A stretch of DNA of 64,000 nucleotides from an uncultured Gammaproteobacteria bacterium (GCA_963748215.1 CAVVHS010000002.1:1-64000), one strand, 5' to 3'; shown: positions 4,501 to 52,520, counted from the stretch's first letter. Made by a program: numbers and translations. Notes: generated by a model not told the origin, from the letters alone.

Positions 4501-4524
4501 CCGAAACGGCAGGACTGCCCGGGG

Positions 4525-5882: not shown

Positions 5883-5918
5883 CCAGCCTTTTCAGACAGA
5901 CTCCGGGAACATGACACC

Positions 5919-6516: not shown

Positions 6517-6584
6517 GTTAAGTGCCAACTAAACTCCAGCTAGCTCTACCCAAACTTTCAGGCACAACATAAATCCATGACAGG

Positions 6585-7089
6585 TTTCGCCCTGTCGGGC
6601 GAGGTACTTTCTCTTGTGTGCCCAAGAGAAAGTACCCAAAGAGAAGGGCAGCCCGGTGCCCGCGTCGGCGTTCGTACTACAAGGCCGCTTCGCAGCCTTG
6701 CCCTGCGTTCCACGTCAAGCCGGGGCGCGCACAACTCGGAGCCGGAGCGGGATTGGCTAATCCCGCTCCGGCTTGCCTCGGACAGGGCGCGCGCCTTTCC
6801 CCGGCTTGACTGCGGTACTCGGCGCGGCCAACGGGGCCTGGGGGTGGCGCCTTCCAGCATCCCGTCAGGCGCTGCCGAGCATCGCAGGCATTTTGGGATG
6901 GAGCGAGCCGCCCTGTCGAGCTGGATTTGCAAGCCGGAACGGGCCGGGTGCCATTCTCTTGGGTACTTTTCTTGGCGCACGCAAGGACCAATTCGCCGGG
7001 AGCGAATTGGGACATCCGCAGGATGGCCCGCAGGGCGAAGTCCAGGGATGGACTTCGCAAAGAAAAGTACCTCGCCCATTAGGGCGAAA
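6585..7089. mobile_element. MITE-like non-autonomous element, copy 1
   Basis: about 30-bp imperfect terminal inverted repeats TTTCGCCCTnnnGGGCGAGGTACTTT; internal palindromes; related copy at 31843-32429. Confidence 0.75.
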
Positions 7090-7127
7090 AACCAACTATC
7101 ATTGACGCATAGCCTGCAACATCACCC

Positions 7128-38925: not shown

Positions 38926-39454
38926 CCTGCTTCCTGCTGCGACGCACTACCTGTTTCTGGCTGCGCAATCGCTGGTAGTCGGGGTGGTAGGTCAGGTTCT
39001 TGCTGAGGTAGACGTGACGGTCCTCACTCAGGAAGTCATGCTTGCGGAACAGCTTGATAGCCGGCTTGTTGTCGGCGTCGGTGTCGACGATCATCATGCG
39101 CGCTCCGGCGCGGATAAAGGCCTCGGTGATGCCCTCGATCAGCAGGCTGGCAATGCCGCTGCGTTTCAGTTCCGGATCGACCGCCAGCCAGGTCAGGTAG
39201 CCATAGCTCCAGGCGCTGTTGCGCTTGTCGATGAGTGAGCCCAGCGCAAAGCCCACCAGCCGGTCCTGGTACTCGGCGACGAGGCAGAACTCGCCATCCG
39301 AGTGGAACAGGCCAACGGCCTCGTATTCATCCCAGGTCCGGTACAGGCTGGGCCACTTGTCAGCCGTGAATACGCGCTCACCCAGCGCATAGACGGCCGA
39401 CAGGTCCTCCAGCTCCATTTCGCGCACCTCGACGCCTTTTTGAACGGCACTCAT
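38918..39454 (-). CDS. GNAT family N-acetyltransferase
   Basis: WLAVDPELKRSGIASLL acetyl-CoA motif, N..AIKLF; overlaps the M20 start by 8 bp. Confidence 0.88.
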   Translation of the reverse strand: MSAVQKGVEVREMELEDLSAVYALGERVFTADKWPSLYRTWDEYEAVGLFHSDGEFCLVAEYQDRLVGFALGSLIDKRNSAWSYGYLTWLAVDPELKRSGIASLLIEGITEAFIRAGARMMIVDTDADNKPAIKLFRKHDFLSEDRHVYLSKNLTYHPDYQRLRSQKQVVRRSRKQDD

Positions 39455-39592
39455 CACAGCTTCACCACGGCCTGTATCGACCGGAAAAGTATACCTGCAT
39501 TTATGGTCAATGCGATTCACAAAACGCCGACTGGATTCCCGGGAAACGCCTGGAGTATGCTAGGCTCGTTCCCATTCCCGACCCGCCCCGCC

Positions 39593-41371
39593 ATGCCCAA
39601 CCCCCGCATCCTGCGCCTCCTGCTGCCCATCCTGTCCACTGCGCTGTTCTACGCCCTGTATTACGCGATCAGCGCCATGGGTTTCGATGTCGTCATCGTG
39701 CCCAAGGCCATCCCGCGCGATTACCTGCTGAACCTGGTGCTGGCCTATGCGCTCATTGCATTGTCACGGCGTCTCTGGGTCTTCCTGCTGCTGCAGGGTC
39801 TGCTGATGGCCTTGCTGTACATAGGCAATGCCGTCAAGGTCAGCTTCTTCGGCGGCCCGATCATGCCGGATGATGTATATGCCCTGCGCACGCTGTTGCT
39901 GCTGCTGGAAGGCTGGCAGTTCTATCTTGCTGCGCTGCCGCTGGTCGGCATCGCCAGCCTGCTGATCTTCAATTTCAGCCTGCGTAACTGGGGTTCCTGG
40001 CTGGCACTTGCCGCATTGCTGTTGCTTGGTGTCACGCTGGTATACCAGCCGCGAAACATCATCAAGCCGCTCGATCACTACGTCGGCAACGTGGTCTGGG
40101 ACCAGCGCTCCAACTACCTGCAGCGCGGCGCCATGCTCTACTCGCTGATGGAAGGTGCACGTTACTTCGCCGACCGCGTACCGCCGCCCGACCGCGAGGC
40201 CGTGCGTGCGTCGCTTGCGCGCCTGCGGGCGGGCCTGCCGCCACACCACTTGCCGGCCGGGGAATTCACGCCGCGGAACGTGCATATTATATTGCTCGAG
40301 TCGTTCTGGGACCCGTCGCCGCTGAAAGCCGGCCACTACTCGCGTGACCCGTTGCCGAAGGACTTCCGTGCGCTATGGAAGCAGGCCGGTAACAGTCGCA
40401 TCCTGTCGCCGGTGTTCGGCGGCTATACCGCCAATGCCGAGTTCGAGGCGCTATGCGGCTTCCCGGTACTGCAGGATGCCGTCAAATTCGAGCGCGATCT
40501 CAAGAATGACGCGCCCTGCCTGCCGCGCATCCTGGCACAGCAGGGTTACACCACGATCGCCTCGCACCCCAACGTACCGGTGTTCTGGAACCGCGTGAAC
40601 GCCTATCGCCGGCTCGGCTTCGGGACCTACTGGTCGCTGGACGATTTCGAGAAAGTCGACATGGTGCGCAACTTCATGAGCGACGCCTCGCTCTACCGCC
40701 AGGTGCTGGACAAGATCGAACCCTGGCTCGACAGCGGCAAGCCGCTGCTGAACTACATCGTCACCTACTTTGGTCACTGGGACTATCCGCTGCGCGGCGA
40801 GCGTACTCGCGTCATCGATGATGCATCAGGCGTGCCCGAGGTCGGCAGCTTCGCCAACACGGCGTACTACAAGGCGAAGGAGTTGATGGAATTTCTCAAG
40901 GAACTCACCGGGCACGACCCGGACGCGCTGATTGTCATATTCGGCGATCATCCACCCTACCTCGGCTCGAACTTCTCCGGCTATGCCGAATCCGGTGTGC
41001 TGGCGGACAACCGCAGCAAGTTCACGGCGGAAATGTTCGGCGTCTACAATGCGGCACCGCTGATCGTCATCGACGGCAAACGCGGCGCCCGGAAATTTGG
41101 CACGCTGGCGCTGTATGAGCTGCCGGCCCTGCTGCTGCAACTGCTGCACCTCGACAACGCCGGGCCGATCGGACTGACCGCCCCGGAGACCGGGATGCAT
41201 GTACGCCCGATCCCGGGCCTGCATTACCTGGTCAGCGACACGGGCGACGTCGACGTGTGCAAGGAACCACCCTGGTCGGAGGACTGCAGCCGCAGCGCCG
41301 CCTGGCTAAAGGATGTCGTCACCGTCGGTGACGATTTATTTGTCGGGGGGCAGTTTACGCTCGGTGAATAG
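39593..41371 (+). CDS. LTA synthase / phosphoglycerol transferase (sulfatase-fold) family membrane protein
   Basis: about 5 N-terminal TM helices; LLESF, GGYTANAEFE (catalytic Thr), GHW, FGDHPP. Confidence 0.87.
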   Translation: MPNPRILRLLLPILSTALFYALYYAISAMGFDVVIVPKAIPRDYLLNLVLAYALIALSRRLWVFLLLQGLLMALLYIGNAVKVSFFGGPIMPDDVYALRTLLLLLEGWQFYLAALPLVGIASLLIFNFSLRNWGSWLALAALLLLGVTLVYQPRNIIKPLDHYVGNVVWDQRSNYLQRGAMLYSLMEGARYFADRVPPPDREAVRASLARLRAGLPPHHLPAGEFTPRNVHIILLESFWDPSPLKAGHYSRDPLPKDFRALWKQAGNSRILSPVFGGYTANAEFEALCGFPVLQDAVKFERDLKNDAPCLPRILAQQGYTTIASHPNVPVFWNRVNAYRRLGFGTYWSLDDFEKVDMVRNFMSDASLYRQVLDKIEPWLDSGKPLLNYIVTYFGHWDYPLRGERTRVIDDASGVPEVGSFANTAYYKAKELMEFLKELTGHDPDALIVIFGDHPPYLGSNFSGYAESGVLADNRSKFTAEMFGVYNAAPLIVIDGKRGARKFGTLALYELPALLLQLLHLDNAGPIGLTAPETGMHVRPIPGLHYLVSDTGDVDVCKEPPWSEDCSRSAAWLKDVVTVGDDLFVGGQFTLGE

Positions 41372-41449
41372 AAATACGGCATACCGTCCTGCCGGCAGTC
41401 CGCAGCTTCTATTCAGGCCGGAAGCAATCGAAAATTTCCTGAAACAGCC

Positions 41450-41767
41450 TCATACGTCCGGCTTGACCATATGCAGACCGGGCCCCGAACGCAGACGTTT
41501 CGCAGCCGCGTATTCCTCGTCCGTCATCTGGCTACCGACGACATTGCGCAGCAGTTCCGCATCCTTGTCACCCTGATCAACTGCCCGTGAAAGCCAGTAA
41601 TGGGCCTGCGCCATGTCTATGGAAACGCCCCGCCCCTCTGCATACACCAGGCCAAGCGCGTACTGCGCATCCACCTCGCCACGTTGTGCCGCTTCCAGAA
41701 TGGCAGGCACCTTGGAGGGATCGTTGCGCAGCAGGACCAGGTCCTTGAGATAGCCGTTATCGCTCAT
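41450..41767 (-). CDS. Sel1-repeat protein
   Basis: AQYALGLVYAEGRGV..D..QAHYWLSRAVDQG. Confidence 0.82.
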   Translation of the reverse strand: MSDNGYLKDLVLLRNDPSKVPAILEAAQRGEVDAQYALGLVYAEGRGVSIDMAQAHYWLSRAVDQGDKDAELLRNVVGSQMTDEEYAAAKRLRSGPGLHMVKPDV

Positions 41768-42077
41768 GACTGGGATTGCCCGGGACGAGAGAGATACGAT
41801 TGTACGGTATGCGGCAGGACGGCGCGAACCCGTTATGGCACGAGTACGCACGGAGTTCCTCGACAACATGAGGTGCCGGCAACACGCGGCATGCGTTATG
41901 GGTCACCTTCCCCTTGATAATTCACTGGAATATTTTGCAGATATTGCGCACCAGCCGAATATCCATCGGCGCAGGCGCTTATGAGCGACACCACCGGACG
42001 GATCCTGTCAGCAGACCTGCATCGGAACGGCACGTGCCGGGAAACCCCTGGCCATATGTAGCGCAACCTGCGCTGAT

Positions 42078-43340
42078 TCAGGTAGCCGCACTCACACCAG
42101 CGACCCGGGCCATCACCTGCCGGTATTCATCACCCAGGCGCAGCAGCGTCACCAGCCACGCCAGGCATACGGCAAGCACCAGCCAGCTCAACTCGCCGGC
42201 GCTGATGCTCCACGGCAGCCACTGTGTCAGCAACAGGATCAGCACCGAGCCCAGCACCTTGAACAGCCGGTAGCCAAACATGTCGATCCAGGCCTTGGCC
42301 TGGAAAATCAACAGCGGATCGATCGGCACATACAACAGTTCCTTGGAGGCACGGTTGATGGAATACGACAGGCCGCGATCGGAGATCTTGAGGAAGGCAC
42401 CGGCCTGCAGAGTGGCATGCGACATGTACCAGAAACTGCCCGCCAGCACGGCCAGCGGCTGGGCGAACATGCCACCGAGCGCACCCAGCCAGCGGTGCAC
42501 CAGCGGCGTGATCAGCAGGTTGATGCCGATGGCGACGCCGCTCAGCAGGCTGAAGAAACCGCCCAGGTAGGCGGTGCGCGCCTCGCGATCGCTGATGGTC
42601 GCTTCCACCACCTTCATGAACTGGAATTCCACCAGCGGTTCGACCATCTGTGCCAACAGCAGTATCAACGCAATCAGGAACAGGTAGCGATGCCTGAGGA
42701 TGTCGCGCCAGTGACCGCTGTTTGCGTCGTTGTGATTGCGTACGCCGGCATGCTCGGTATACAGACCGAGCCGTCCCATCAGGAGAGTCAGCAGCACGAG
42801 CACACCGATGATGCCGGCGGCGACCAGCAGCAGGTCGGTGGTGTCGAGTTGAAATTGCGTGATGAGCACACTCGACAGGCTGCCGCCGGCCACACCGCCC
42901 AGCAGCCCGCCGGTCGCGATCAGCCCGTACCAACGCTTGCCGGCCTGCGTGTCGTAGATGGTATTGGTGAGACTCCAGAACTGCTCAACCAGGATCACAC
43001 TCAGCATGTCGACAAACATGTAAAACATGAACGCCTCAACGAATCCGCCGTTGTTGAGCTGCGGATAGAACGCCAGCAGGCAGACGATGATGATGGCACA
43101 GGTCCCGAGCACAACATTGATGCGTGAATGACGCGCGACGAGTCGGTTATAGAGGCTGATGATCAGGGCCAGCGCGACGGCGGTCGCTATCCACACATAC
43201 GGCAGGTTCGCACTGCCCAGCGAACTGATGAACAGGGAACGGCTCGCCGGCTTGAGGTGATACAGCGCCGTGATAATAAGAAAGAAATTTGTGAACAGGA
43301 GCACACAACGGCCGATATGTTCAGTGCGAAGATATGACAT
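42078..43340 (-). CDS. NTT/TLC family (ATP/ADP translocase-like) nucleotide transporter, stand-alone
   Basis: about 12 TM helices; LKPASRSLF, VEQFWSL, KRWYGLI..GG..G, YSINRASKELLYVP, AKAWID...R..K motifs characteristic of the TLC family. Confidence 0.82.
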   Translation of the reverse strand: MSYLRTEHIGRCVLLFTNFFLIITALYHLKPASRSLFISSLGSANLPYVWIATAVALALIISLYNRLVARHSRINVVLGTCAIIIVCLLAFYPQLNNGGFVEAFMFYMFVDMLSVILVEQFWSLTNTIYDTQAGKRWYGLIATGGLLGGVAGGSLSSVLITQFQLDTTDLLLVAAGIIGVLVLLTLLMGRLGLYTEHAGVRNHNDANSGHWRDILRHRYLFLIALILLLAQMVEPLVEFQFMKVVEATISDREARTAYLGGFFSLLSGVAIGINLLITPLVHRWLGALGGMFAQPLAVLAGSFWYMSHATLQAGAFLKISDRGLSYSINRASKELLYVPIDPLLIFQAKAWIDMFGYRLFKVLGSVLILLLTQWLPWSISAGELSWLVLAVCLAWLVTLLRLGDEYRQVMARVAGVSAAT

Positions 43341-43447
43341 GAGTTGTAATTGAGCAGCGTGAGAAATGAATGAGCAGTAATAAAGCTTTGACTTATATAC
43401 GTTAATCGGTTAGCATCGTTGGAATTTTTTGGGTTCAGGAGGTCGTA

Positions 43448-44365
43448 ATGCTATCGGGACTGTTAAAGGCAATTGGACTCTCTCTGGGAATAATCGTTAC
43501 CCTTCAGACAGCTTCCGCGCAAAGCTCCTTCCCCGTCCTGCGTGAAGCCAAGAATCCGTCTCTACAGGCACAGCTCGAAAACCGTCTAAAACGCCTGAAA
43601 CTTGACGGCGCTGTGCGCAGCGGCGACCTTGCCGTGGCTCTGGTCGATGTCACCGATCCCCAGCATCCACAGCTTGCCCAGGTCAACGGCGACGATATGG
43701 TGTATGCCGCGAGCCTGCCGAAGATCGCCATCCTGCTGGCGGCCTTCGAGCGTGTGCATGAAGGCAAACTGCCGCTCGATGACGAAACGCGCCAGTTGAT
43801 GACGGACATGATCCGCCATTCTTCCAACAGCGCGGCAACGACCCTCATCCAGAAGGTCGGACGCAAGTATATCAACAATGTTTTACGCTCGCCGAAATAT
43901 CGCCTGTACGACCCGGCCCACAACGGCGGCCTGTGGGTAGGCAAGGAGTATGCACAGGGCGTGGCCTATCAGCGTGACCCGCTGCATAACCTGTCGCACG
44001 GTGCCACAGCCATCCAGGTGGCGCGCTTCTATTACCTGCTTGAAACCGGTCAACTGGTAACGCCGGAGCTCTCCAGGGAGATGAAGGCGATTCTGGGGAA
44101 TCCGGGTATCCACCATAAATTCGTGAAAGGACTGGAAGCCAACTTCCCCGATGCACAGATCTACCGCAAGTCCGGCAGCTGGCGCAACTGGCACGCCGAC
44201 AGCGCCATTGTCGAGCACGCGGGCCGCACCTATATCGCCGTTGCGCTGGCGCAAAGCCCGCAGGGCGGCGAATGGCTGAAGAACCTGATCTGCGAACTGG
44301 ATGGCATCATTTTGCAGCAGCCGGTGCGGACCGCCAGTCTGTCAAGAGCCGGTGCAGCCGAGTAG
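43448..44365 (+). CDS. exported serine hydrolase, class A beta-lactamase/PBP fold
   Basis: signal peptide (ASA); SxxK (SLPK), SxN (SSN), KSG. Confidence 0.87.
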   Translation: MLSGLLKAIGLSLGIIVTLQTASAQSSFPVLREAKNPSLQAQLENRLKRLKLDGAVRSGDLAVALVDVTDPQHPQLAQVNGDDMVYAASLPKIAILLAAFERVHEGKLPLDDETRQLMTDMIRHSSNSAATTLIQKVGRKYINNVLRSPKYRLYDPAHNGGLWVGKEYAQGVAYQRDPLHNLSHGATAIQVARFYYLLETGQLVTPELSREMKAILGNPGIHHKFVKGLEANFPDAQIYRKSGSWRNWHADSAIVEHAGRTYIAVALAQSPQGGEWLKNLICELDGIILQQPVRTASLSRAGAAE

Positions 44366-45602
44366 CGAACGTCTGGTGCTCGACCGCCGAGTTTTTCTTC
44401 AGCACATTCGAAGTCAGCGAAACCATGTAGAACATCCGCGGCTCGCCCGCGGGTGATTCCACAATCGCAACCGAGTTCATCAGGTTATCCCGGTTCCCCA
44501 TATATTTCTTGCACACATAGCCTTCCTCCGCCTGGCAGCGGTACAGCGATCCCGACTTGAAATACAGCGCCGCGTCGTTCAGTGCCGGCGACGAGGCATA
44601 GCGTATGCGACGCTGGGTGATATACATCAGGCGCTTGATCTGCAGGCTCGACCAGGCATCGACCAGCCGACCCTGTTCCAGCAGCAGCAGGTAATGCATC
44701 AGCTCGCGCGTGGTGGCAATGCTGTTGGTGCCCGGCACACGGCGCTTGCCTTCTGACGTGAAGAAACTGCCCTGACGCAGGCTCTCAATGTCCAGCCCGT
44801 TGCGTGTCAACGGCGTCAGCAAACTATCGACCAGCAACTCACCGAGCGCCTTGCGCCCGGTGTCACGAAAGAACGCCGCTTCCTGCTCGGCAGACACCGG
44901 GTAGGCGGCGCCAAAGTGGCGCAACAGCAGCAACTGCTTGATCACCATGCTCGCGGCCGCATTGGAACTGGCCGACAGCATCCAGTCCAGGTAGGTCCAC
45001 AGATTTCCGGTATCGCCCGTGCGCAATTCACGGCGCGGCATGCGATTCAGCTCCGGTTTCCAGAACGGCACCTCGTGGTGATCGGTGCGGATGAAGGCAT
45101 CGGCAGTGACCTGCGTGTCCCTGAGCACGCGTATTCGCGCCTCGATGTCATCGGGATATATGTCAGCCAGTGCCTGGAACACCGCCAGTGCCACCATCAG
45201 CTTGCCGACACTGCCGGGATTGCGACGCGTGAGCCCGTTGTGTTCCGCAAAAACGGGATGGTCCGGATCGCTGAGATCCAGCACGCTGACACTGTAGTGC
45301 TTCGCCTCGGCACCGAGCAATGCGACGATCCTGCGTGTCAGGTCGGGATCGGCTTCAGGCAGTCGTAAATCCGCTTGCTGCTGCAGGCGCAGCTGGATCT
45401 GACCGGTATTCAGCAACGCCCCTGGCCGCAAGCGGTTTCCCGCCACCTTGCCTTCACTGGCGAGGCGGTAACCTTCCAGCCGGGCGATCCCCGTCTCGGC
45501 GTAACCGTCGACGGGGTAGGCCCAGGCCTGACCCGTGACGCCAGCCAGCACGGCAGCTGCCATCAGCCAGCGATTGAAACAGTCCCTTGAAATTATAGTC
45601 AT
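44307..45602 (-). CDS. exported serine hydrolase, beta-lactamase/PBP fold with insertions
   Basis: signal peptide (AWA); SxxK (SVGK), SSN, KSG; Cys pair after KSG; start uncertain (45602 or 45617). Confidence 0.83.
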   Translation of the reverse strand: MTIISRDCFNRWLMAAAVLAGVTGQAWAYPVDGYAETGIARLEGYRLASEGKVAGNRLRPGALLNTGQIQLRLQQQADLRLPEADPDLTRRIVALLGAEAKHYSVSVLDLSDPDHPVFAEHNGLTRRNPGSVGKLMVALAVFQALADIYPDDIEARIRVLRDTQVTADAFIRTDHHEVPFWKPELNRMPRRELRTGDTGNLWTYLDWMLSASSNAAASMVIKQLLLLRHFGAAYPVSAEQEAAFFRDTGRKALGELLVDSLLTPLTRNGLDIESLRQGSFFTSEGKRRVPGTNSIATTRELMHYLLLLEQGRLVDAWSSLQIKRLMYITQRRIRYASSPALNDAALYFKSGSLYRCQAEEGYVCKKYMGNRDNLMNSVAIVESPAGEPRMFYMVSLTSNVLKKNSAVEHQTFATRLHRLLTDWRSAPAAAK

Positions 45603-45781
45603 CTGAATTTTACACATCGTTCCTTATCACCTGACATTCTCCCGTGTCGTCATAGCGTGGTACGAAGTGAGCAGGAAATCCACCATCGGCGTGCCCTTGC
45701 ACAGAGAGCAGTCTCGCACCAGGAATTGCCTGGCTGTATTTGCAATGACGAGGTTCATGAACGTCCGGAGCCAACCTGATA

Positions 45782-48763
45782 CTAGTCCGCAACGGGGGGC
45801 AGTGGCGACTGACGCAGGTCAACCACGGCATCCGGTCCACTGTCGCCGCTGCGATCGATGTCAATCAGGTACTGGCTGCGCCGCGCACGCTGGCTTTCAA
45901 CGAAGGGGCGGATCTGGAACAGGGCGAGTTTGCCATCGCGAAATCCGAACTCGATATCCGCCGGCGCCGGCAACGCGCCCTTGCCCTGAGCAACCGGCAT
46001 CGGGAAGCGCCGCTCCACGTCATCCGACAGCCTCCGCAGCTGCTCGATCTCGTCCGGCTCCAGCACCTGCGCCCGACCGCTGGCCGGCACCTTGCGCATG
46101 CCACCGGCAGCTTCGGGTTCGGCACGCAACGGTGCCGTGGCCTGCGCCAGCAATCGTACCTCGCCGGCGGTGCGTCGCACCCGCAGTTCCTCGGCCGCCT
46201 GCCCTTCAACCGCACCGCCAACGCCTTCGCTGACCGCAATCGACAACCACTGGCGATCGCCGTTTTCCACGTCCGCCGTCACCAGCACGCCGGATTTATC
46301 CGAGGCAAAAGTCTTGAGGAGCAGCACCGCCGGGTAAACATGCTCCGGCTGCTCCATGTGCGCCTGGCGCCAGGCGTAGGCACGCTCCGTGAACGGCGAG
46401 GCCCATACCTTTTGAATGGCCTGCACGACGGCATCGAAGCCGACCACGTTGGGAACGGTGAGATTCAGGCCGGCACCGGTGAAACCGGGCAGGTCCTCGA
46501 CATTGGTGTCGCTGCGCACGAAGACACCGACCGTCTCGGCATCACCGAAGGCCTGCTGCATGGCAGCGCGCAGCTGTTCGCGGAACGCCGTTCCCGGCTC
46601 GGCACTGCTGATCCACTGGCGCAACCGTTCCAGAAACTGGCGCGTCTCGGCCTGGCGCTGCGCACCGTCCGGCAACGCGCGTAACCGCGTGTATTGCGCA
46701 CGCAGCCAGTCAAAGGCGGAGGATCCACCCGCCTCGATCGGCTGGTCCAGCAGGGCACGGAACACACCGAACGGTATGACCACGCCGGGATTCACCGCGT
46801 CCGGATAATGATGCAGCAACTCACCGAGATTGGCGGCCTTGGGACCGACGATGCGTCCGGAATCCGTGGCACGGATGGCGTCCAGCAGCAGCGGGGCGGT
46901 ATACGCAAGATCGAGCTTCTGCAGGTCCGGCCGGATCACCACATCGGCATCAAGCGCCTCGCGGCCGAAAATCCGGTCCCAGTGCGGGCCGTCGGTGGAG
47001 ATCTGTACCGTGCCGCGCGGGCTGACCGCAAGCACGATGCGCTCGCCGATGTGCGGCTGGAATTGCTCGACCAGCCGGTCGTCCACCACGACATTCGGGA
47101 TACCGAGATTGCGCGCCAGCAATTGCACGTGCGACAGCGAGCTGCCCTCGCCGCGGGTAAGAATGCCGGCAATCGGCGGCAACTCCGGCGTAGTCGATGG
47201 CAACAGATAGATACCATCCTTGCGAAAGTCCTCACCTTCCCGCGGCGCGGCAAGCAGTACGCCGCGCCGCAGGCCTGGATTGAGTGCGCGCAGTCCGCCG
47301 GCAAGCTTGCGCTCGAACAGGTATTGCCGGGTGCCGACCAGCTGGGCAGCGTCCTGCATCAGGACGTCCAGCACGCGTGTATAGGCAAGCAGCGGACTGC
47401 CACGCAGCCGATCCGGGACGTAGTGCGCCGCCGACGGCGTCAGGTCGAGCCACTGCTCGACCGTTGGTTCGAAATGGAATTCCAGCGCACGCTGCGCCCA
47501 TTGCGGCACGCGTGCCAGGTAGCTCAGCGTACTGTAGTAGTCCTCGGTGCCGGGCATGTCGCTGGCCTCGATGGCACCAAGCCGCTCGTCCAGGAAGCCC
47601 CACTGCCGGTCTGACAGGAACCCGCTGGCCTGCAGCGATACCGCCAGGCTGCGCAGCCACTGCAGGCGCGTGAGACGATCGACAGCGGGCATCTGCTCCA
47701 GCAACTGGTTGGCAGCGGCATAGACTTCCTGCTCCAGGGCAAGATTTGCCTGCAGCAGCCGTAGCTGGTTGGGTGGACTGAAACGATTGGTCTGCGGCAT
47801 CAGCCTGCGCAGCTGTAATGCAGCTTCCGCGGCGCTGCGCAGACGCACCTGCAGGTCCGGTGCGTCACGCAGGCTGGCGATGATTTCATTCAGGATTGGC
47901 GCGATCGGCTTGCTGCCACGTTCGGAGATCAGCGCTTCCAGCTGCAGGACGGCCGTGCGCGGCGCATACAGCGTATCGAGTTCGGCCGCGAGGCGCCGGT
48001 ACTGCCCCGCCAGTTTCGACAGGCCTTGCCTGGCGGCATAATCACGCACCCGCTGCGGATCGCTGGCATCCGGAAGGCCGTGCAGCTTCACGCGTAACGT
48101 CTGGAAATCCGGATCGGCATCGGCGATCTCGATCGCGAGCTGGCGCACGGTGACGGCAGTGGGCGGTTCCGTGCCGACAGGCAGCAGGCGCGCGGCCTCG
48201 CGCAGCAGCAGGTAGCGCGCCGGATCCAGCCAGTCCGGATCCTGCACCATGGCCAGCAGCAACAGGCGGGCCGCGGCGCGCTCGTCCTCGACCTGCAGGG
48301 CACCGCGATAGAAACGGGCCTGGCGGAACACCCAGCCGTCATCGTTCAGGATCAGAAACTGCTCCAGCAGCACCTGGCGCAGCACGTCAAGCTGCGGATA
48401 GGCACCGACGAACTTCAAGGCATTCAGGTCCGTCAGCAGGGTGGCGATCAGATAGCCCTGGTCGCGAATGGCAAGGGTATGCGCATTCCACTCGCCATGC
48501 TGCACACCCCCGCCGTGCTCGACGCAGGCGCCCTCTTTCGGTGGCAAGATACTGCCGTCGAAGCAGAACCAGCGGATGCGCTCGAACGGACCGCGCGAGG
48601 CCGCCTTCATCTGACTGATCCAGCTCCGCATCTGCTGCAGGTCGGGCACGGGCGGAGTGGCGTCGGCCGCGACCGGGAGCGAGGCAAACACACATACTGC
48701 CAGCACCAGTGCCGGCAGCAGACGACGGGGAGACAGATGAGATTGTATGTACAGGATTGGCAT
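45782..48763 (-). CDS. exported PEP-utiliser-family dikinase with glucan-water-dikinase-like domain order
   Basis: signal peptide; phospho-His motif GSSLSHVQLLARNLGIP; C-terminal PPDK_N ATP-grasp GPKAANL, VRSDTNVEDLPGFTGAG, VWAS, DIEF, FQIRP. Confidence 0.85.
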   Translation of the reverse strand: MPILYIQSHLSPRRLLPALVLAVCVFASLPVAADATPPVPDLQQMRSWISQMKAASRGPFERIRWFCFDGSILPPKEGACVEHGGGVQHGEWNAHTLAIRDQGYLIATLLTDLNALKFVGAYPQLDVLRQVLLEQFLILNDDGWVFRQARFYRGALQVEDERAAARLLLLAMVQDPDWLDPARYLLLREAARLLPVGTEPPTAVTVRQLAIEIADADPDFQTLRVKLHGLPDASDPQRVRDYAARQGLSKLAGQYRRLAAELDTLYAPRTAVLQLEALISERGSKPIAPILNEIIASLRDAPDLQVRLRSAAEAALQLRRLMPQTNRFSPPNQLRLLQANLALEQEVYAAANQLLEQMPAVDRLTRLQWLRSLAVSLQASGFLSDRQWGFLDERLGAIEASDMPGTEDYYSTLSYLARVPQWAQRALEFHFEPTVEQWLDLTPSAAHYVPDRLRGSPLLAYTRVLDVLMQDAAQLVGTRQYLFERKLAGGLRALNPGLRRGVLLAAPREGEDFRKDGIYLLPSTTPELPPIAGILTRGEGSSLSHVQLLARNLGIPNVVVDDRLVEQFQPHIGERIVLAVSPRGTVQISTDGPHWDRIFGREALDADVVIRPDLQKLDLAYTAPLLLDAIRATDSGRIVGPKAANLGELLHHYPDAVNPGVVIPFGVFRALLDQPIEAGGSSAFDWLRAQYTRLRALPDGAQRQAETRQFLERLRQWISSAEPGTAFREQLRAAMQQAFGDAETVGVFVRSDTNVEDLPGFTGAGLNLTVPNVVGFDAVVQAIQKVWASPFTERAYAWRQAHMEQPEHVYPAVLLLKTFASDKSGVLVTADVENGDRQWLSIAVSEGVGGAVEGQAAEELRVRRTAGEVRLLAQATAPLRAEPEAAGGMRKVPASGRAQVLEPDEIEQLRRLSDDVERRFPMPVAQGKGALPAPADIEFGFRDGKLALFQIRPFVESQRARRSQYLIDIDRSGDSGPDAVVDLRQSPLPPVAD

Positions 48764-49109
48764 ATTCAGGGGACCGGCCGTTCCGGACAGTACCGGGCAG
48801 GTTCGCGGTCAGACGAAGATAAAACCGGCGTCAGGCGTAATATCGAAACAATGCTGTCGGGTGACTCATAATAAACAACACTTTAGCGGGTCGTGCCGTG
48901 CAGTTGCAACCTCCATACCCGGCGACGGACAGCCAGAGTTACCGAAAGCGACGATCCGACCCGTCACACAAGCGGCAATTCACGGATTTACATGGATAAT
49001 TAAAGCGTAACGCGCGCGGAACGAAAACCCCCTTGGCCCGGGAAGCACCCTGCATGAGATGCGGGTGTGACACAAACCATCTCAACCCGGCCTTGCCTTC
49101 CCGAATGGG

Positions 49110-49898
49110 TCATTTAACCTCTTCGAAGTAGTCATACTCATAATTCACATCGAAACTGCCATCCCCGTCCGAATCATATTCAGCGGAAACCAGTTTTCCC
49201 ATATGAAATCTCTGGCGTTTTTTACGCCGGTCCCGGCCTTCGCCGAGGATTATGACCTCTTCGAGATTGCCGTACCTGAACGTGGCCCTGAGATCCGTAT
49301 CCCCGTCCTGGTTCAGATCCGACGTCTGGAAACCCGCCTGGCCGTCCACATAGGTATAGCGTGTTTCATAGACTCCGTCGAAATCGTCATCGTGCTCGGC
49401 AGTTTTCACCAGGCCGTGGCGATCGTAGTGATAGACAAGATCGGTTTTAGCGTCGTAATTCCTGTCGACTTCCAGCCGGCTCATCCGCTTGTCCCGGTAA
49501 ATCCACTTCTCATCCGGCACCCCGTCGCCGTTTACATCGATACCTTCCTCGGTAACCGGGGTGTTATACGCCCAGAACATTACACCGCCGCCAACCACAA
49601 GGCCGGCGATGAATCCGGCAATACCGCTGGCCGGCTTGCGGGCTGCCGTTGCTGATTCCTGTTCGACCTGGATCGACTCCCAGTCACTGATTATCTGCCG
49701 CGCCCGCGGATAATCCGGCTCGTCGACCATGACCCGTACCAGGTTGATCGCCTGCAGCTCGCCCACACCGCCCGGCAGGTACTCGCCGTCCACCCTGCCG
49801 GTGATGCCTTCCTGCTCCAGCAAATTCAGGATCATGTGCGCGTCCAGCGCGGTCGCGGCCTCGTAAACGCTTTTCACTTGCTGCCCGGCCCGACGCAT
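49110..49898 (-). CDS. DUF2007 domain membrane protein with DxDxDG-like repeats
   Basis: N-terminal DAHMILNLLEQEGI...GELQ...RVMV; TM helix; five D-x-[DN]-x-D-[GA] loops. Confidence 0.75.
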   Translation of the reverse strand: MRRAGQQVKSVYEAATALDAHMILNLLEQEGITGRVDGEYLPGGVGELQAINLVRVMVDEPDYPRARQIISDWESIQVEQESATAARKPASGIAGFIAGLVVGGGVMFWAYNTPVTEEGIDVNGDGVPDEKWIYRDKRMSRLEVDRNYDAKTDLVYHYDRHGLVKTAEHDDDFDGVYETRYTYVDGQAGFQTSDLNQDGDTDLRATFRYGNLEEVIILGEGRDRRKKRQRFHMGKLVSAEYDSDGDGSFDVNYEYDYFEEVK

Positions 49899-49932
49899 TC
49901 ATCGACAGATGGCACGGCACGGCGTTGCTGTC

Positions 49933-51513
49933 TCATTCGCCCTTCCAGAACACGTGGTACAGATCATGCCGCCGGTCGCGCAGGTTCTTCACCGTGCCAT
50001 TGTTGCGGGCATCGAGCAGGGTTGCCGGACGCAGGTCGGCTATCGCTACCATTTCCGTGTTGGGTGTCGTGTCAGCGGCAATGCCGTCACGCGCGAACGG
50101 CAGGTCGCATGGGGTCAGGATGCAGCTCTGGGCATACTGGATGTCCATGTTCGCCACGTTCGGCAGGTTGCCGCAGTTGCCTGCCATGACCACGTACACC
50201 TGGTTTTCCACGGCGCGGGACTGGCAGCAGTAACGCACCCGCAGGTAGCTCTGGCGCTCGTCGGTGCAAAACGGCACGAACAGGATCTGCGCGCCCTGGT
50301 CGGTCAGGTGGCGCGCCAGTTCCGGAAACTCCGCATCGTAGCAGATCAGCACACCGATCGGCCCGCAATCGGTCTGGATCACATCCAGCTCGCTGCCGCC
50401 CTCGATGTTCCACCACCAGGCCTCGTTCGGCGTCGGATGGATTTTCGCCTGCGTGTGGATGCTGCCGTCGCGCAGGAACACGTAGCAGATGTTTTCCACC
50501 CGCCCGTTCGGCATATGCGTCGGGTGCGAGCCACCGATGATATTGATGTTGTAGCGCAGGGCGAGGTCGCGCATGGCCTCGGTGAACTGCGGGGTATACC
50601 GGGTCAGCGCGTCGATGGCCTGCACCGGTGTCAGTTGCTGCGATTCCATGGACAGCAGCTGCAAGCTGAAGAGCTCGGGAAAGACCACGAAGTCACCCTT
50701 GTAATCGGCGACCACGTCGACGAAGTAACGCACGATATCGATGAATTCCTCGAACGACTTCACGCGCCGCTGCTTGTACTGCACGGCGCCGATCCGCACG
50801 CAGTCAGGCAAGCGTCCACCATAGGACTTTTCCTGCGTCCCGGCCTCCTCCTGCCGGACCTTCGGATTGCGCCAGGCCATGTGGATGCCGTAGCCGAGCG
50901 ATTGCGTATCCACGTCCAGGTAGTGCGGAATGATGCCGATGACTTCAAAGCCGTTGCGCAACTGGAAGGACAGCACCGGGTCGCGCTGTGATTTGTCCTT
51001 TATCGCATCGATGTAGGCCTCCACTGTGCCGAAACGCTTGATGCGCCGCGCCAGAGTGGGCAGTCGCCCGGCGAACACGATGCCTTTCAGGCCCAGGTCC
51101 TGCGCCAGCCGCTTGCGCGCGTTATACAGGCGCTGCCCGATACGGTAGCCGCGGAAATCCGGGTCGACGCACACCTCCATGCCATACAGCCACTCGCCCG
51201 CAGGGTCGTGGGTGGAGGCATAGCCGTTACCGGTGATCGCACCCCAGGTGTGCGTCTTCATGCACACCTGCTCGCTGACCCGCAGGGTGGCGCAGTAGCC
51301 GACGATCCGCTCGCCGGCCGTCACCACGAACTGGCCGGCGGGAAAGTGGTTGAGCTGGCCGGTCAGCATCGGTTCCGAATGACCGTACATGCCGGTGTCG
51401 CGATAGACGCGCGAGGACAGCGCAGCGATCTGCGGGATGTCCTCCATCACAGCATTGCGCACCTGCAGCTGGAGTTTCTGGTTCGCGAGTGGACTGGCGG
51501 TTTTTTTACTCAT
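49933..51513 (-). CDS. bifunctional GNAT acetyltransferase / carbon-nitrogen hydrolase
   Basis: VCVDPDFRGYRIGQRLY (GNAT); FPE, AKIH, ICYD nitrilase catalytic triad. Confidence 0.9.
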   Translation of the reverse strand: MSKKTASPLANQKLQLQVRNAVMEDIPQIAALSSRVYRDTGMYGHSEPMLTGQLNHFPAGQFVVTAGERIVGYCATLRVSEQVCMKTHTWGAITGNGYASTHDPAGEWLYGMEVCVDPDFRGYRIGQRLYNARKRLAQDLGLKGIVFAGRLPTLARRIKRFGTVEAYIDAIKDKSQRDPVLSFQLRNGFEVIGIIPHYLDVDTQSLGYGIHMAWRNPKVRQEEAGTQEKSYGGRLPDCVRIGAVQYKQRRVKSFEEFIDIVRYFVDVVADYKGDFVVFPELFSLQLLSMESQQLTPVQAIDALTRYTPQFTEAMRDLALRYNINIIGGSHPTHMPNGRVENICYVFLRDGSIHTQAKIHPTPNEAWWWNIEGGSELDVIQTDCGPIGVLICYDAEFPELARHLTDQGAQILFVPFCTDERQSYLRVRYCCQSRAVENQVYVVMAGNCGNLPNVANMDIQYAQSCILTPCDLPFARDGIAADTTPNTEMVAIADLRPATLLDARNNGTVKNLRDRRHDLYHVFWKGE

Positions 51514-51641: not shown

Positions 51642-52520
51642 TCACCGCAGCTCGGCCAGCAGGCTGTCAATCATGCCCTGCGCCTGGCCAAGATAACCGC
51701 CGCCGAACAGGTTAAGGTGATTGAGTACGTGGTAGAGGTTGTACAGCGGCTTGCGTGCACGATAGCCGGGATCCAGCGGCCAGGCCTCTTCGTAGGCGGC
51801 ATAGAAGCCGCTGCCGAAGCCGCCGAACAGTTCGGTCATGGCGATATCGGTCTCGCGGTCGCCATAGTATACCGCCGGGTCGAAGATGGCCGGCTCGCCG
51901 GCCTGCGTCCAGGCATGGTTGCCTGACCACAGGTCGCCGTGCAGCAGCGAGGCAGCCGGGGTGTAGCCATCGAACAGCTGCTGCAAGCCGTCCAGCAATA
52001 ATTCACCCTGCGCCTGCAGGCGCCCGCCGTGACCGTGCTGTGCCGCCAGCTCGAGCTGAAAACGCAGGCGCTGTTCGCGCCAGAACCCGATCCAGTCGTC
52101 AGTCAGCGGGTTGAGCTGCGGCGTCGAGCCGATGGTGTTGTCGCGCTCCCAGCCGTAGCGGTCCTGCGTGATACGGTGCATGGCGGCCAGGCCCGCACCC
52201 AGCGCACGGGCGTTGCCATGCCCGCCGAGTGGCAGGTATTCCAGTACCAGCCAGGCCGACTGCACATCGTTGCCAAAACATACCGGTGCGGGAATCCTCA
52301 ACTCACTGCACTGGCGCAGCGCCGCCAGCCCGGCCGCCTCGGCGGCAAACATGTCCGCCTTTCGCGCATTATTGAGCTTGACGAAGTAATCGGTATCGCC
52401 GTAGCGGATACGGCTTGCCTCGTTGATGCAACCGCCACCGATCGCGCCCTGCTGCTGCAGCTGGGCTGTGACACCGGTCGTCGCGGCGATGTCGTGTGCG
52501 ATGTTTTCCCAGAGAGACAT
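51642..52520 (-). CDS. fructosamine kinase family protein
   Basis: GGCIN, YFVK, LLHGDLWSGN, FDPAVYYGDRE.DIAM..LFGGF, LNHLNLFG. Confidence 0.92.
   Translation of the reverse strand: MSLWENIAHDIAATTGVTAQLQQQGAIGGGCINEASRIRYGDTDYFVKLNNARKADMFAAEAAGLAALRQCSELRIPAPVCFGNDVQSAWLVLEYLPLGGHGNARALGAGLAAMHRITQDRYGWERDNTIGSTPQLNPLTDDWIGFWREQRLRFQLELAAQHGHGGRLQAQGELLLDGLQQLFDGYTPAASLLHGDLWSGNHAWTQAGEPAIFDPAVYYGDRETDIAMTELFGGFGSGFYAAYEEAWPLDPGYRARKPLYNLYHVLNHLNLFGGGYLGQAQGMIDSLLAELR

What the first reader, a model, noticed from the sequence alone, without database searches (positions are those of the whole stretch)
42078..48763. Candidate extracytoplasmic ATP-dependent phosphorylation system: NTT translocase, exported dikinase and two exported PBP-fold enzymes
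Seen in sequence: four adjacent genes encode a TLC/NTT-type nucleotide transporter, two signal-peptide serine enzymes with intact SxxK/SxN/KSG motifs, and a 993-aa signal-peptide protein with phospho-His and ATP-grasp dikinase domains. Established: PEP-utiliser dikinases need ATP; the periplasm is generally regarded as lacking its own ATP supply; NTT proteins exchange nucleotides across membranes. Inference: the transporter supplies ATP to, and may recover AMP/ADP from, an exported dikinase that phosphorylates an envelope substrate such as peptidoglycan fragments, periplasmic glucan or an antibiotic, with the PBP-fold proteins acting on the same substrate. I know of no described pathway with this composition.
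Basis: partly seen in the sequence, partly recalled or inferred. Interest (0 to 1): 0.88.

Follow-up and report, generated by a model that had tools for sequence, protein, structure and literature searches.

The report
Exported dikinase module with ATP-carrier homologue
Four genes that travel together in many Gram-negative bacteria encode an ATP-using phosphorylating enzyme that appears to be exported, two penicillin-binding-type hydrolases and a relative of ATP/ADP carriers, which suggests that these cells feed ATP into the periplasm, a compartment usually thought to have none.

Summary
Window 42078-48763 holds an NTT/TLC-type transporter (420 aa), two paralogous PBP-A/class-A-beta-lactamase-fold proteins (305 and 436 aa) and a 993-aa protein. 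That protein reads signal peptide, new all-helical domain, phospho-His domain, then C-terminal ATP-grasp.

The four genes form a conserved module:
- All four kinds lie together in 30 of 34 fully flanked loci, from several diderm phyla.
- In 300 genomes of the window's class, the dikinase domain is in 27 and the large PBP-like protein in 26, all among those 27.
- The orthologous transporter class is in 25, all among those 27, and in none of the other 273.

N-termini of 105 of 113 homologues look like signal peptides with a positive-inside charge bias. The ATP-grasp and His motifs are invariant.

Transport, export and the substrate remain untested.

In passing, other NTT-like genes sit beside Tat-signal aldo/keto reductases (19 of 36 loci) or signal-peptide CotH kinases (2 of 36). 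My ten paper searches found no description of the module.

The parts
42078..43340 (-). NTT/TLC-type (AAA family) transporter homologue, 420 aa. Proposed ATP exporter or nucleotide exchanger of the inner membrane.
   Evidence: Pfam TLC 54.5 bits against cut-off 21. The family profile A5 matches solved NTT chains 9j3n/9j3j at E 4.5e-33 and 1.9e-27 over positions 18-426. It is the only NTT-like gene in the 3.52-Mb own genome. Sources name its orthologues Npt1/Npt2 nucleotide transporter, ATP translocase or ATP:ADP antiporter.
43448..44365 (+). Small PBP-A/class-A-beta-lactamase-fold serine enzyme, 305 aa, with a signal peptide.
   Evidence: Pfam Beta-lactamase2 84.1 bits. S89xxK92, S125-S126-N127 and K241-S242-G243 are invariant in 39 sequences. 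It is a paralogue of the 436-aa protein (hhalign probability 97.8%).
44307..45617 (-). Large PBP-A/class-A-beta-lactamase-fold serine enzyme, 436 aa, with a signal peptide. It is the operon partner of the dikinase.
   Evidence: Pfam Beta-lactamase2 29.1 bits. S136xxK139, S217xN219, K354-S355-G356 and the pair C361/C369 are invariant in 47 sequences. The AF2 model has pLDDT 92.4. The best Foldseek match is PBP-A 2j8y at E 1.4e-10, TM 0.75 on the target. The family is in 26 of 300 class genomes, all of them dikinase-positive.
45782..48763 (-). Exported dikinase-like protein, 993 aa.
   Evidence: There are 804 clusters at 50% identity that carry its N-domain.
48665..48763 (-). Predicted Sec-type signal peptide of the dikinase, residues 1-33, with V-A-A before the likely cleavage site.
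   Evidence: This is read. Of 113 homologues, 105 have a hydrophobic 12-mer ahead of the conserved GPF..WFC anchor. K+R against D+E is 180:17 before the core and 92:259 after it.
47249..48631 (-). N-terminal domain of about 460 aa: a small beta unit with the invariant pair C67/C80, followed by an all-helical body. Presumed acceptor-binding domain.
   Evidence: The AF2 model has pLDDT 89.7. No Foldseek PDB match reached E <= 0.001. VIA-wide gave only helical-bundle matches, best Z 10.5 over 89 residues. The domain was found only in front of the His and ATP-grasp domains.
47084..47206 (-). PEP-utiliser mobile (phospho-His) domain. The H545 codon is at 47129-47131.
   Evidence: Pfam PF00391 26.8 bits. 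H545 is invariant. It aligns with the catalytic TSH motif of PEP synthase 8a8e.
45878..46852 (-). C-terminal PPDK_N ATP-grasp (nucleotide-binding) domain.
   Evidence: Pfam PF01326 117.5 bits. The profile matches PEP synthase and rifampin-phosphotransferase-type chains at E 2e-27 to 5e-25. The GPKAANLGEL, VRSDTNVEDLP and DIEFGF...FQIRP motifs are invariant.

Best explanation
This is a four-gene envelope module for ATP-dependent phosphorylation outside the cytoplasm.

Proposed mechanism:
1. The 993-aa enzyme is exported through Sec and works like a glucan-water-dikinase-type enzyme.
2. Its C-terminal ATP-grasp binds ATP and the beta-phosphate goes to His545 on the swivel domain.
3. The phosphate passes from His545 to an acceptor held by the new N-terminal helical domain, releasing AMP and phosphate.
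4. The NTT-type inner-membrane carrier supplies the ATP from the cytoplasm, probably by exchange against spent nucleotide and/or phosphate.
5. The two paralogous PBP-A-like serine enzymes act on the same substrate, most likely an acyl-D-aminoacyl or ester bond of an envelope component.
6. In some lineages a periplasmic class-B acid phosphatase and an amino-acid-type symporter complete the cycle.

Shown here: domain content, intact catalytic motifs, signal-peptide-like N-termini, strict co-occurrence and conserved gene order.

Inferred: export, ATP transport and its direction, and hydrolase action on the same substrate. The substrate itself is unknown.
For: Linkage and co-occurrence:
- Of 34 loci with at least 5 kb on both sides, 32 hold the large PBP-like gene, 32 the small one, 31 an NTT-like gene and 30 all four. 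The window's order and orientation recurs in 23 loci.
- Clustering of all flanking ORFs finds no other widely shared family. The next most common is in 8 loci.
- The loci come from Gamma-, Zeta- and Betaproteobacteria, Desulfobacterota, Myxococcota, Nitrospirota and Spirochaetales records.
- In 300 genomes of the class, the dikinase N-domain is in 27 and the large PBP-like family in 26, all among the 27.
- NTT-like genes are in 67, including all 27. The orthologous class (445 bits or more) is in 25, all among the 27, and in none of the 273 others. The remaining two (G148, G204) have an NTT-HEAT form beside the dikinase.
- In G088 the carrier lies about 1.05 Mb from the dikinase yet is retained.
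- The own genome has a single NTT-like gene, this one.

Export:
- 105 of 113 homologues have a hydrophobic N-terminal segment. Charge is 180 K+R against 17 D+E before it and 92 against 259 after it. All 105 have a small-x-small site.
- C67 and C80 are invariant, and mature proteins have a median of 2 Cys.
- All listed carriers of the module are diderm lineages, except one contig in an archaeal bin.

Catalytic competence:
- The ATP-grasp and phospho-His motifs are invariant and align with those of PEP synthase.

Transporter identity:
- The family profile matches solved NTT carriers full-length at E 4.5e-33. No other transporter in the PDB scored below E 0.09.

Accessory genes that fit the model:
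- A HAD-IIIB acid phosphatase sits directly behind the small PBP-like gene in four loci and elsewhere in the locus in two more. An SDF+SBP_bac_3 symporter lies inside the module in 8 loci.

Parallel cases:
- Other NTT-like genes of the same class lie next to a signal-peptide CotH kinase (2 loci) or a Tat-signal aldo/keto reductase (19 loci), out of 36 examined.
Against: - No transport, export or kinase activity has been measured.
- The transporter is a distant NTT relative. As a single sequence it matches the solved carrier only at E 0.16. It scores 35.9 bits against a cut-off of 387 for the NTP/NDP exchanger model TIGR00769. Its substrate could therefore differ.
- A water dikinase releases AMP. 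As far as I recall, AMP is not a usual NTT counter-substrate.
- ATP is small enough to leak through porins, and the common view is that the periplasm holds no ATP. That phrase occurs in several papers listed.
- 3 of 34 fully flanked loci showed no NTT-like gene by tblastn within 8 kb.
- The signal-peptide call rests on my own heuristic, not on SignalP or an experiment. 8 of 113 homologues lack the hydrophobic segment. These have short N-termini, which may reflect gene-start calls.
- The acceptor domain has no recognisable fold relative, so nothing points to a substrate.
Confidence: 0.55

Rival explanations
1. The module is real and the dikinase is exported, but the NTT-like protein does not deliver ATP. 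It carries something else, for example importing the phosphorylated or hydrolysed product, or AMP or adenosine. The dikinase would then get its phosphoryl donor another way, such as ATP leaking or released from cells, or by running in reverse.
For: TLC/NTT proteins belong to the MFS clan, and the window protein also scores on MFS_1 (22.1 bits, below cut-off). It falls far below the curated NTP/NDP exchanger cut-off. A second transporter (SDF+SBP_bac_3) is embedded in 8 loci, so uptake of a product is part of some versions. NTT family members with non-ATP substrates are described, according to passages of PMC5381601.
Against: The best and only convincing structural relatives by sequence profile are ATP/ADP carriers. 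The orthologous carrier class is confined to dikinase-positive genomes, 25 against 0 of 273. Other NTT-like subfamilies pair with other exported nucleotide-dependent enzymes. The common denominator of those partners is a nucleotide cofactor, not a shared product.
Confidence: 0.2
2. The module is an envelope detoxification or antibiotic-inactivation set. The dikinase phosphorylates a xenobiotic, as rifampin phosphotransferase does, and the two beta-lactamase-fold proteins hydrolyse beta-lactam-like or ester compounds. The energy supply could still be as in the best explanation.
For: The rifamycin phosphotransferase model is among the best NCBIfam matches (95.9 bits), and the solved chains 5hv1 and 5fbs, which I recall as rifampin phosphotransferases (the PDB labels them phosphoenolpyruvate synthase), match. 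One source names a homologue rifampicin phosphotransferase. The closest folds to the 436-aa protein include many class A beta-lactamases.
Against: All equivalog scores are far below cut-off, 95.9 against 999. The domain order and the acceptor domain differ from rifampin phosphotransferase. Two distinct PBP-like paralogues stay at roughly 50-60% identity across phyla in fixed order with the dikinase. That looks like a housekeeping pathway with an endogenous substrate rather than a mobile resistance set, and no mobile-element genes recur in the flanks.
Confidence: 0.12
3. The dikinase is not exported. Its N-terminal hydrophobic stretch is a membrane anchor that leaves the catalytic domains in the cytoplasm, where ATP is plentiful. 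The carrier and the periplasmic PBP-like proteins would then be linked to it only through a shared substrate that crosses the membrane.
For: No experimental localisation exists and no dedicated predictor was available here. ATP-grasp enzymes are otherwise cytoplasmic, as far as I recall.
Against: The charge distribution argues for an N-in, C-out orientation: 180 K+R against 17 D+E before the core and 92 against 259 after it, in 105 homologues. Small-x-small cleavage-type sites are present in all 105. An invariant Cys pair lies right after the segment, and Cys content is very low and typically two per mature protein.
Confidence: 0.08

Closest known systems
Plant alpha-glucan, water dikinase (GWD/PWD) working with the plastid NTT ATP importer
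   Same: Both have acceptor-binding modules at the N-terminus and the PPDK-type nucleotide-binding domain at the C-terminus (passage of PMC5575247 on cassava GWDs). Both lack a PEP/pyruvate TIM-barrel domain. Both are associated with hydrolases, and in some loci here with a phosphatase. From recall, GWD primes starch for amylases, phosphoglucan phosphatases follow, and plastids import ATP through NTT.
   Different: Pfam finds no CBM45 or CBM20. The N-domain is a new helical fold. The partner hydrolases are serine PBP-fold enzymes, not glycosidases. The compartment would be the bacterial periplasm, so the carrier would have to export ATP.
PEP synthase / pyruvate phosphate dikinase and rifampin phosphotransferase
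   Same: They share the ATP-grasp and swivelling phospho-His domains and the same catalytic motifs.
   Different: The domain order is permuted. There is no PEP-binding or rifampin-binding domain. Equivalog scores are far below cut-off: 105 against 883, 103.9 against 598 and 95.9 against 999. A signal peptide is present.
NTT/Tlc nucleotide transporters of Chlamydiae, Rickettsiales and plastids (TC 2.A.12)
   Same: The profile matches solved carriers full-length. Pfam TLC is above cut-off. Sources name the orthologues ATP:ADP antiporters.
   Different: This protein is shorter (420 aa against about 500), very divergent and sits in a free-living 3.5-Mb genome. NTTs of free-living bacteria were reported as widespread but of unknown role (PMC5381601, abstract and passages).
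PBP-A of Thermosynechococcus (Tll2115) and class A beta-lactamases
   Same: They share the fold (Foldseek E 1.4e-10, TM 0.75 on the target) and the SxxK, SxN and KSG motifs.
   Different: Identity is only 12-16%. The 436-aa protein has about 130 extra residues and a conserved C-x7-C pair. Both families are closer to each other than to any solved protein.
CotH-type extracytoplasmic kinases
   Same: They are ATP-using enzymes with signal peptides, found next to NTT-like genes in two genomes here. An ATP-ADP antiporter gene is also reported beside the Zetaproteobacterial stalk cluster that includes a CotH-domain protein (PMC8250860, passages).
   Different: The fold and chemistry are unrelated: a protein-kinase-like fold, not a His-relay dikinase.

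Membership tests
PEP-utilising dikinases (PPDK_N + PEP-utilizers) | ATP-grasp nucleotide-binding domain with its Lys, Arg and Glu/Gln/Arg motifs | tested here: met
   PF01326 scores 117.5 bits against cut-off 27. K642, R750, E756, D757, D936, E938, Q950 and R952 are invariant and align with PEP synthase.
PEP-utilising dikinases (PPDK_N + PEP-utilizers) | Swivel domain with the catalytic histidine | tested here: met
   PF00391 scores 26.8 bits against cut-off 23.1. H545 is invariant and aligns with the TSH motif of 8a8e.
PEP synthase / PPDK proper | C-terminal PEP/pyruvate-binding TIM barrel and an equivalog-level score | tested here: not met
   Pfam finds no such domain. NF004881 scores 105.2 against 883, NF005057 103.9 against 598 and TIGR01418 95.5 against 739.75.
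Rifampin phosphotransferase | Order ATP-grasp, rifampin-binding domain, C-terminal His domain, and an equivalog score | tested here: not met
   The order here is N-domain, His, ATP-grasp. NF041857 scores 95.9 against 999.
Glucan, water dikinase | Acceptor-binding region at the N-terminus, His domain, and the nucleotide-binding domain at the C-terminus | tested here: met
   One search gives the order here. The passage of PMC5575247 gives the GWD layout.
Glucan, water dikinase | Starch-binding modules (CBM45 or CBM20) | tested here: not met
   Pfam finds no CBM at E <= 0.01. The N-domain model has no carbohydrate-binding-module match.
NTT/TLC nucleotide transporters | Sequence membership of the family | tested here: met
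   PF03219 scores 54.5 bits against cut-off 21. Profile A5 against 9j3n gives E 4.5e-33 over positions 18-426.
NTT/TLC nucleotide transporters | Score at the level of characterised NTP/NDP exchangers | tested here: not met
   TIGR00769 scores 35.9 bits against cut-off 387.2.
NTT/TLC nucleotide transporters | Transport of adenine nucleotides | not testable with these tools
   This needs uptake or exchange assays.
Class A beta-lactamase / PBP-A fold serine enzymes | The fold and the SxxK, SxN and K(S/T)G motifs | tested here: met
   The fold was tested for the 436-aa protein only.
Class A beta-lactamase / PBP-A fold serine enzymes | Deacylation base of true class A beta-lactamases (Glu166 equivalent) | tested here: inconclusive
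   An invariant R176-D177-P178 stretch in the small paralogue may correspond to it. That alignment was made by eye from the recalled class A motif.
Sec-exported proteins | N-terminal n-h-c signal peptide | tested here: met
   My own heuristic was run on 113 homologues. No dedicated predictor or experiment was available.

The most novel reading that the evidence does not exclude
NTT-type carriers of free-living diderm bacteria may be a general supply line of cytoplasmic nucleotides to the periplasm. Each subfamily would be dedicated to an exported nucleotide-dependent enzyme: ATP for this dikinase module and for signal-peptide CotH kinases, and possibly NAD(P)H for Tat-exported aldo/keto reductases. 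If so, the periplasm of many bacteria would host ATP-driven, and perhaps NAD(P)H-driven, chemistry. That would explain why NTT genes are widespread outside intracellular parasites.
Probability: 0.35. Interest if true: 0.95.

Novelty: categorically new. Interest (0 to 1): 0.85.

Why it matters
Textbook envelope biology assumes there is no ATP in the periplasm. Known envelope machines therefore borrow energy from the inner membrane or from activated lipid donors.

A widespread, dedicated pairing of an ATP/ADP-carrier homologue with an exported ATP-grasp dikinase would mean that many environmental Gram-negative bacteria deliberately fuel periplasmic phosphorylation. The N-domain family has at least 389 clusters at 50% identity with E <= 1e-30. 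About 9% of sampled genomes of one class carry it.

It would also give a first testable role for the NTT genes of free-living bacteria, which Major et al. 2017 left unexplained (PMC5381601). It would add a new dikinase class with an unknown acceptor domain and two new PBP-fold families. The parts are few and soluble apart from the carrier, so the idea can be tested directly.

Tried and rejected
- Complex prediction of the dikinase N-domain with the 436-aa protein gave no answer (score 0.00). The earlier hand-ins met a full queue.
- Foldseek against the PDB found nothing at E <= 0.001 for the N-domain. VIA-wide gave only generic helical bundles, best Z 10.5 over 89 residues. The fold therefore gives no lead, and this does not show that the fold is new.
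- The ESM Atlas returned only fragments of the same family, at 0.88 and 0.79.
- Single-sequence PDB searches for the two PBP-like proteins found nothing. Their family profiles gave only E 0.06-0.19.
- Rfam found no RNA family in 41000-50000 at E <= 1.
- Promoter-like and terminator-like sites were at chance level: 2 against 2.1 expected and 6 against 6.1 expected.
- One metatranscriptome library (X20) holds contigs 90-99% alike over parts of the small PBP-like gene, the carrier gene and the dikinase gene. This does not prove transcription, the uncovered parts say nothing, and depth cannot rank the genes.
- Paper searches found no description of this module, of an exported dikinase, or of an NTT feeding the periplasm (one search was a malformed query). 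The library lacks most subscription journals, and supplements could not be read.
- I considered Tat export for the dikinase. Twin arginines are present in only some of the 17 aligned N-termini, so Sec is more likely.
- I considered a lipoprotein signal. No conserved lipobox is present.
- I did not map published ATP-binding residues of NTTs, because the structure paper was not found in the library.

Full report
**What is there.** The stretch 42078-48763 holds four genes.

- 42078-43340 (-) encodes a 420-aa polytopic membrane protein. It matches Pfam TLC (ATP/ADP transporter) at 54.5 bits against a cut-off of 21.
- 43448-44365 (+) and 44307-45617 (-) encode proteins of 305 and 436 aa. They match Beta-lactamase2 at 84.1 and 29.1 bits.
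- 45782-48763 (-) encodes a 993-aa protein. PEP-utilizers (phospho-His) lies at residues 520-560 and PPDK_N (ATP-grasp) at 638-962. About 500 residues in front match nothing.

The three soluble proteins begin with n-h-c signal-like stretches. The 305-aa gene lies on the other strand, converging on the 436-aa gene with a 59-nt overlap. The dikinase has its His domain before the ATP-grasp, the reverse of PEP synthase.

**The dikinase family.** A word-indexed search found 555 relatives, of which 120 were listed. Where named, they are called PEP/pyruvate-binding domain-containing protein or phosphoenolpyruvate synthase. Named sources include Thioalkalivibrio, Guyparkeria and Mariprofundus.

A full scan with the N-domain profile found 804 clusters at 50% identity (E <= 0.001), 389 of them at E <= 1e-30. 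In the roughly full-length proteins of about 920-1050 aa among the 150 listed, the domain starts at residue 22-74, or at residue 1 in a few calls that look N-terminally truncated.

In a 17-sequence alignment, H545 is invariant. So are the ATP-grasp motifs: K642 in GPKAANLGEL, R750/E756/D757 in VRSDTNVEDLP, and D936/E938/Q950/R952 in DIEFGF...FQIRP. These line up with the corresponding motifs of solved PEP synthase. The protein therefore looks like a working His-relay dikinase.

It is not PEP synthase, PPDK or rifampin phosphotransferase. It has no PEP-binding or rifampin-binding domain, and all NCBIfam equivalog scores are about a tenth to a sixth of their cut-offs. Its layout is that described for plant glucan, water dikinases: acceptor region at the N-terminus and nucleotide-binding domain at the C-terminus (passage of PMC5575247). 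It has no starch-binding module.

The N-domain folds with confidence (pLDDT 89.7) into a small beta unit plus a large helical body. It has no Foldseek match in the PDB at E <= 0.001. An exhaustive structural comparison gave only generic helical-bundle matches.

**Is it exported?** All 17 aligned homologues have a hydrophobic N-terminal stretch ending in a small-x-small site, followed by an invariant Cys pair, C67 and C80.

Of the 120 listed homologues, 113 carry the GPF..WFC anchor. Of those, 105 have a hydrophobic 12-mer (mean Kyte-Doolittle 1.7 or more) ahead of it, and 81 pass a stricter filter. The 8 without it have only 6-47 residues before the anchor, which fits mis-called starts.

Over those 105, the flank before the core holds 180 K+R and 17 D+E. 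The flank after it holds 92 K+R and 259 D+E. This is the positive-inside pattern of an N-in, C-out signal. The mature part has a median of 2 cysteines. Twin arginines occur in only some N-termini, so Sec is more likely than Tat.

This is a heuristic and not a measurement, but it is consistent across the family. All carriers listed are diderm lineages, apart from one contig in a Nitrosopumilus-labelled bin.

**The other three proteins.**

- The transporter family profile (32 sequences) matches the two solved NTT ATP/ADP carriers over its whole length: 9j3n at E 4.5e-33 and 9j3j at E 1.9e-27. Nothing else in the PDB scored below E 0.09.
- The single sequence barely matches, at E 0.16. The curated exchanger model is far from met, at 35.9 against 387 bits. 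Public sources call the orthologues Npt1/Npt2 nucleotide transporter, ATP translocase or ATP:ADP antiporter.
- The two PBP-like families are paralogues of each other (hhalign probability 97.8%, 25% identity). The SxxK, SxN and KSG triads are invariant in both.
- The 436-aa protein folds (pLDDT 92.4) into the PBP-A/class A beta-lactamase fold. Its best match is PBP-A 2j8y at E 1.4e-10, TM 0.75 on the target and 12% identity. It also carries about 130 extra residues and a conserved C361/C369 pair.

**Are the four genes a unit?** A scan of one genome per species found 566 stretches encoding a relative of the dikinase, and the best 80 were fetched.

- By tblastn, 73 of the 80 loci hold the large PBP-like gene, 63 the small one and 55 an NTT-like gene (26 orthologous, 29 distant). 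Many loci end at contig edges.
- Among the 34 loci with at least 5 kb on both sides, the counts are 32, 32 and 31, and 30 hold all four.
- The incomplete ones are L009, L021, L049 and L055. L021 does have a 731-aa MFS/HEAT protein next to the dikinase, which scores just under the TLC cut-off.
- The window's arrangement (dikinase, large PBP-like gene, then the small one on the other strand, then the carrier) recurs in 23 loci.
- All-against-all clustering of every flanking ORF found only these four families to be widely shared. The next is in 8 loci.
- Of 8 transporter-like neighbours sent to Pfam, 6 pass the TLC cut-off. Some are about 720-770 aa long, and of the three sent to Pfam two show C-terminal HEAT repeats.

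**Genome-wide test.** I searched 300 genomes drawn evenly from the window's class.

- The dikinase N-domain is in 27.
- The large PBP-like family is in 26, all of them among the 27.
- NTT-like genes are in 67, including all 27.
- The high-scoring orthologue class (445 bits or more) is in 25 genomes, all dikinase-positive, and in none of the other 273.
- The two remaining dikinase-positive genomes (G148, G204) have a roughly 735-aa form of the carrier a few kb from the dikinase; forms of that length show HEAT repeats where tested.
- In G088 and G279, of one genus, the carrier is unlinked, about 1.05 Mb away in the closed G088 chromosome, yet kept.
- The own genome (3.52 Mb, 95% complete) has exactly one NTT-like gene, this one.

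Relatives are not independent, so I give counts and no statistics. The positives do spread over 23 genera. G039 (in the 27, the 25 and the 67) and G296 (in the 67) are flagged as unpublished by the tool. Without them the counts read 26, 24 and 65.

**Accessory genes.**

- A HAD-IIIB class-B acid phosphatase follows the small PBP-like gene directly in L027, L029, L031 and L046. It lies in the locus in L032 and L060.
- A fused sodium:dicarboxylate-family symporter with an SBP_bac_3 domain lies inside the module in 8 loci.
- A secreted Gly/Met/Trp-rich repeat protein precedes the dikinase in 5 loci.

A periplasmic phosphatase and an amino-acid-type importer fit a cycle of phosphorylation, hydrolysis, dephosphorylation and uptake. 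They do not name the substrate.

**Parallel cases.** I examined 36 NTT-like loci outside the dikinase module. Twelve surrounded the best hits in dikinase-negative genomes. Twenty-four more included six second copies in dikinase-positive genomes. One further fetched locus, L112, showed no NTT ORF.

- In 2 loci the NTT-like gene starts at the stop codon of a CotH kinase gene with a signal-like N-terminus. These sit in a cluster with a GH113 and another secreted protein.
- In 19 loci it is adjacent to an aldo/keto reductase. All 19 reductases carry an RRxFL-type twin-arginine N-terminus.
- The other 15 have mixed or unknown neighbours.
- Independently, a pan-genome study of Zetaproteobacteria reports an ATP-ADP antiporter gene directly beside the stalk-formation cluster, one of whose genes encodes a CotH-domain protein. 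The study draws no link between them (PMC8250860, passages).

The recurring partner of NTT-like genes is therefore an exported enzyme that needs a nucleotide.

**How it most likely works.** The carrier lets cytoplasmic ATP reach the periplasmic face of the inner membrane. The exported dikinase takes the beta-phosphate onto H545 and passes it to an acceptor held by the N-domain, giving AMP and phosphate. The two serine enzymes cut or remodel the same substrate.

By analogy with starch phosphorylation, which I recall rather than tested, phosphorylation may make an ordered or insoluble envelope polymer accessible to the hydrolases.

Shown: composition, motifs, signal-like N-termini and co-occurrence. 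Inferred: export, ATP transport and direction, and a shared substrate. Unknown: the substrate.

I put this at 0.55. The rivals are:
- The carrier moves something other than ATP (0.2).
- The module is an antibiotic or xenobiotic inactivation set (0.12).
- The dikinase is anchored in the membrane but faces the cytoplasm (0.08).

**Against.** The NTT relation is distant. As far as I recall, AMP is not a usual NTT counter-substrate. ATP could leak through porins. The absence of periplasmic ATP is the common view. The phrase occurs in several papers listed. One review, however, lists two reported periplasmic ATP-dependent processes and notes that ADP/ATP carriers are commonly denied to free-living bacteria (PMC4289276, passages).

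**Novelty.** Major et al. 2017 reported NTT genes in free-living bacteria, including Gamma-, Delta- and Zetaproteobacteria, and left their role open. The word 'periplasm' does not occur in that paper (PMC5381601, abstract and passages).

My ten searches of the held library found no description of this module or of an exported dikinase. The library lacks most subscription journals, and supplements were closed. The parts belong to known superfamilies. The system would be of a kind not described: a nucleotide carrier feeding an exported His-relay dikinase together with dedicated PBP-fold enzymes.

Noticed in passing
L084-L093, L095, L096, L098, L099, L101, L102, L114, L117, L118 (NTT-like gene at about 4000-7300 in each locus): In 19 of 36 NTT-like loci outside the dikinase module, the NTT-like/MFS gene is adjacent to an aldo/keto reductase gene. 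All 19 reductases have a twin-arginine (RRxFL-type) N-terminus, so they are probably Tat-exported. This suggests a periplasmic NAD(P)H-dependent reductase paired with a nucleotide-carrier homologue. Thioredoxin/AhpC-like genes follow in L086 and L117. In L114 the reductase is split in two.
   Followed up: partly
L082:768-7329 and L083:768-7314: A five-gene cluster: a membrane protein, a GH113 glycosidase with a signal-like N-terminus, a secreted 281-aa unknown, a CotH kinase (595/610 aa) with a signal-like N-terminus, and an NTT-like carrier that starts at the kinase's stop codon.
   Followed up: partly
L027:16800-17732, L029:8117-8998, L031:14287-15120, L046:8094-8945, L060:14599-15465, L032:438-1490: A HAD-IIIB class-B acid phosphatase gene (Pfam confirmed for L046 only; the rest assigned by clustering) sits directly behind the small PBP-like gene in four loci and nearby in two.
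   Followed up: partly
L038, L051, L053, L057, L061, L062, L063, L079: A fused sodium:dicarboxylate-symporter-family plus SBP_bac_3 protein of about 740 aa is embedded in the module. In several loci it lies between the carrier and the dikinase, in the lineages that have the distant carrier type.
   Followed up: partly
L020:7318-7863, L023:221-946, L028:2495-3472, L031:5410-6138, L067:1-579: A secreted protein with Gly/Met/Pro/Trp-rich MSPWSG-like repeats and a conserved C-terminal domain of about 90 aa lies just upstream of the dikinase in five loci. It has no Pfam match.
   Followed up: no
L020, L021, L023, L027, L029, L031, L036, L070; also G015, G098, G129, G148, G204, G271: A longer carrier form of about 720-770 aa lies in or beside the module, sometimes together with the 420-aa type; HEAT repeats were seen in L036 and L021, the others being assigned by length. 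L109 holds an NTT-HEAT-cNMP-binding fusion of 1023 aa.
   Followed up: partly
window 44307-44365: The 3' ends of the convergent 305-aa and 436-aa genes overlap by 59 nt. The same overlap (53 nt) is seen in L001.
   Followed up: no
window 39302-41371, 41450-41869, 49110-49898, 49933-51513, 51642-52520: The flanks of the module in the window are not shared with most other loci. They are a 689-aa sulfatase-family membrane protein, a Sel1-repeat protein, a DUF2007 protein, a GNAT plus carbon-nitrogen hydrolase fusion (a like fusion also lies at L087:8290-9846) and a fructosamine kinase.
   Followed up: no
L044 (contig labelled Nitrosopumilus sp. MAG): This contig carries the complete bacterial-type module, although the bin is labelled as an archaeon. 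It is probably a mis-binned contig.
   Followed up: no
L105:5244-6965, L106:2167-3825, L104:5304-5891: Other NTT-like genes lie divergent from GMC (FAD) oxidoreductase genes or directly before a nitroreductase gene. I saw no clear signal peptides on these partners.
   Followed up: no
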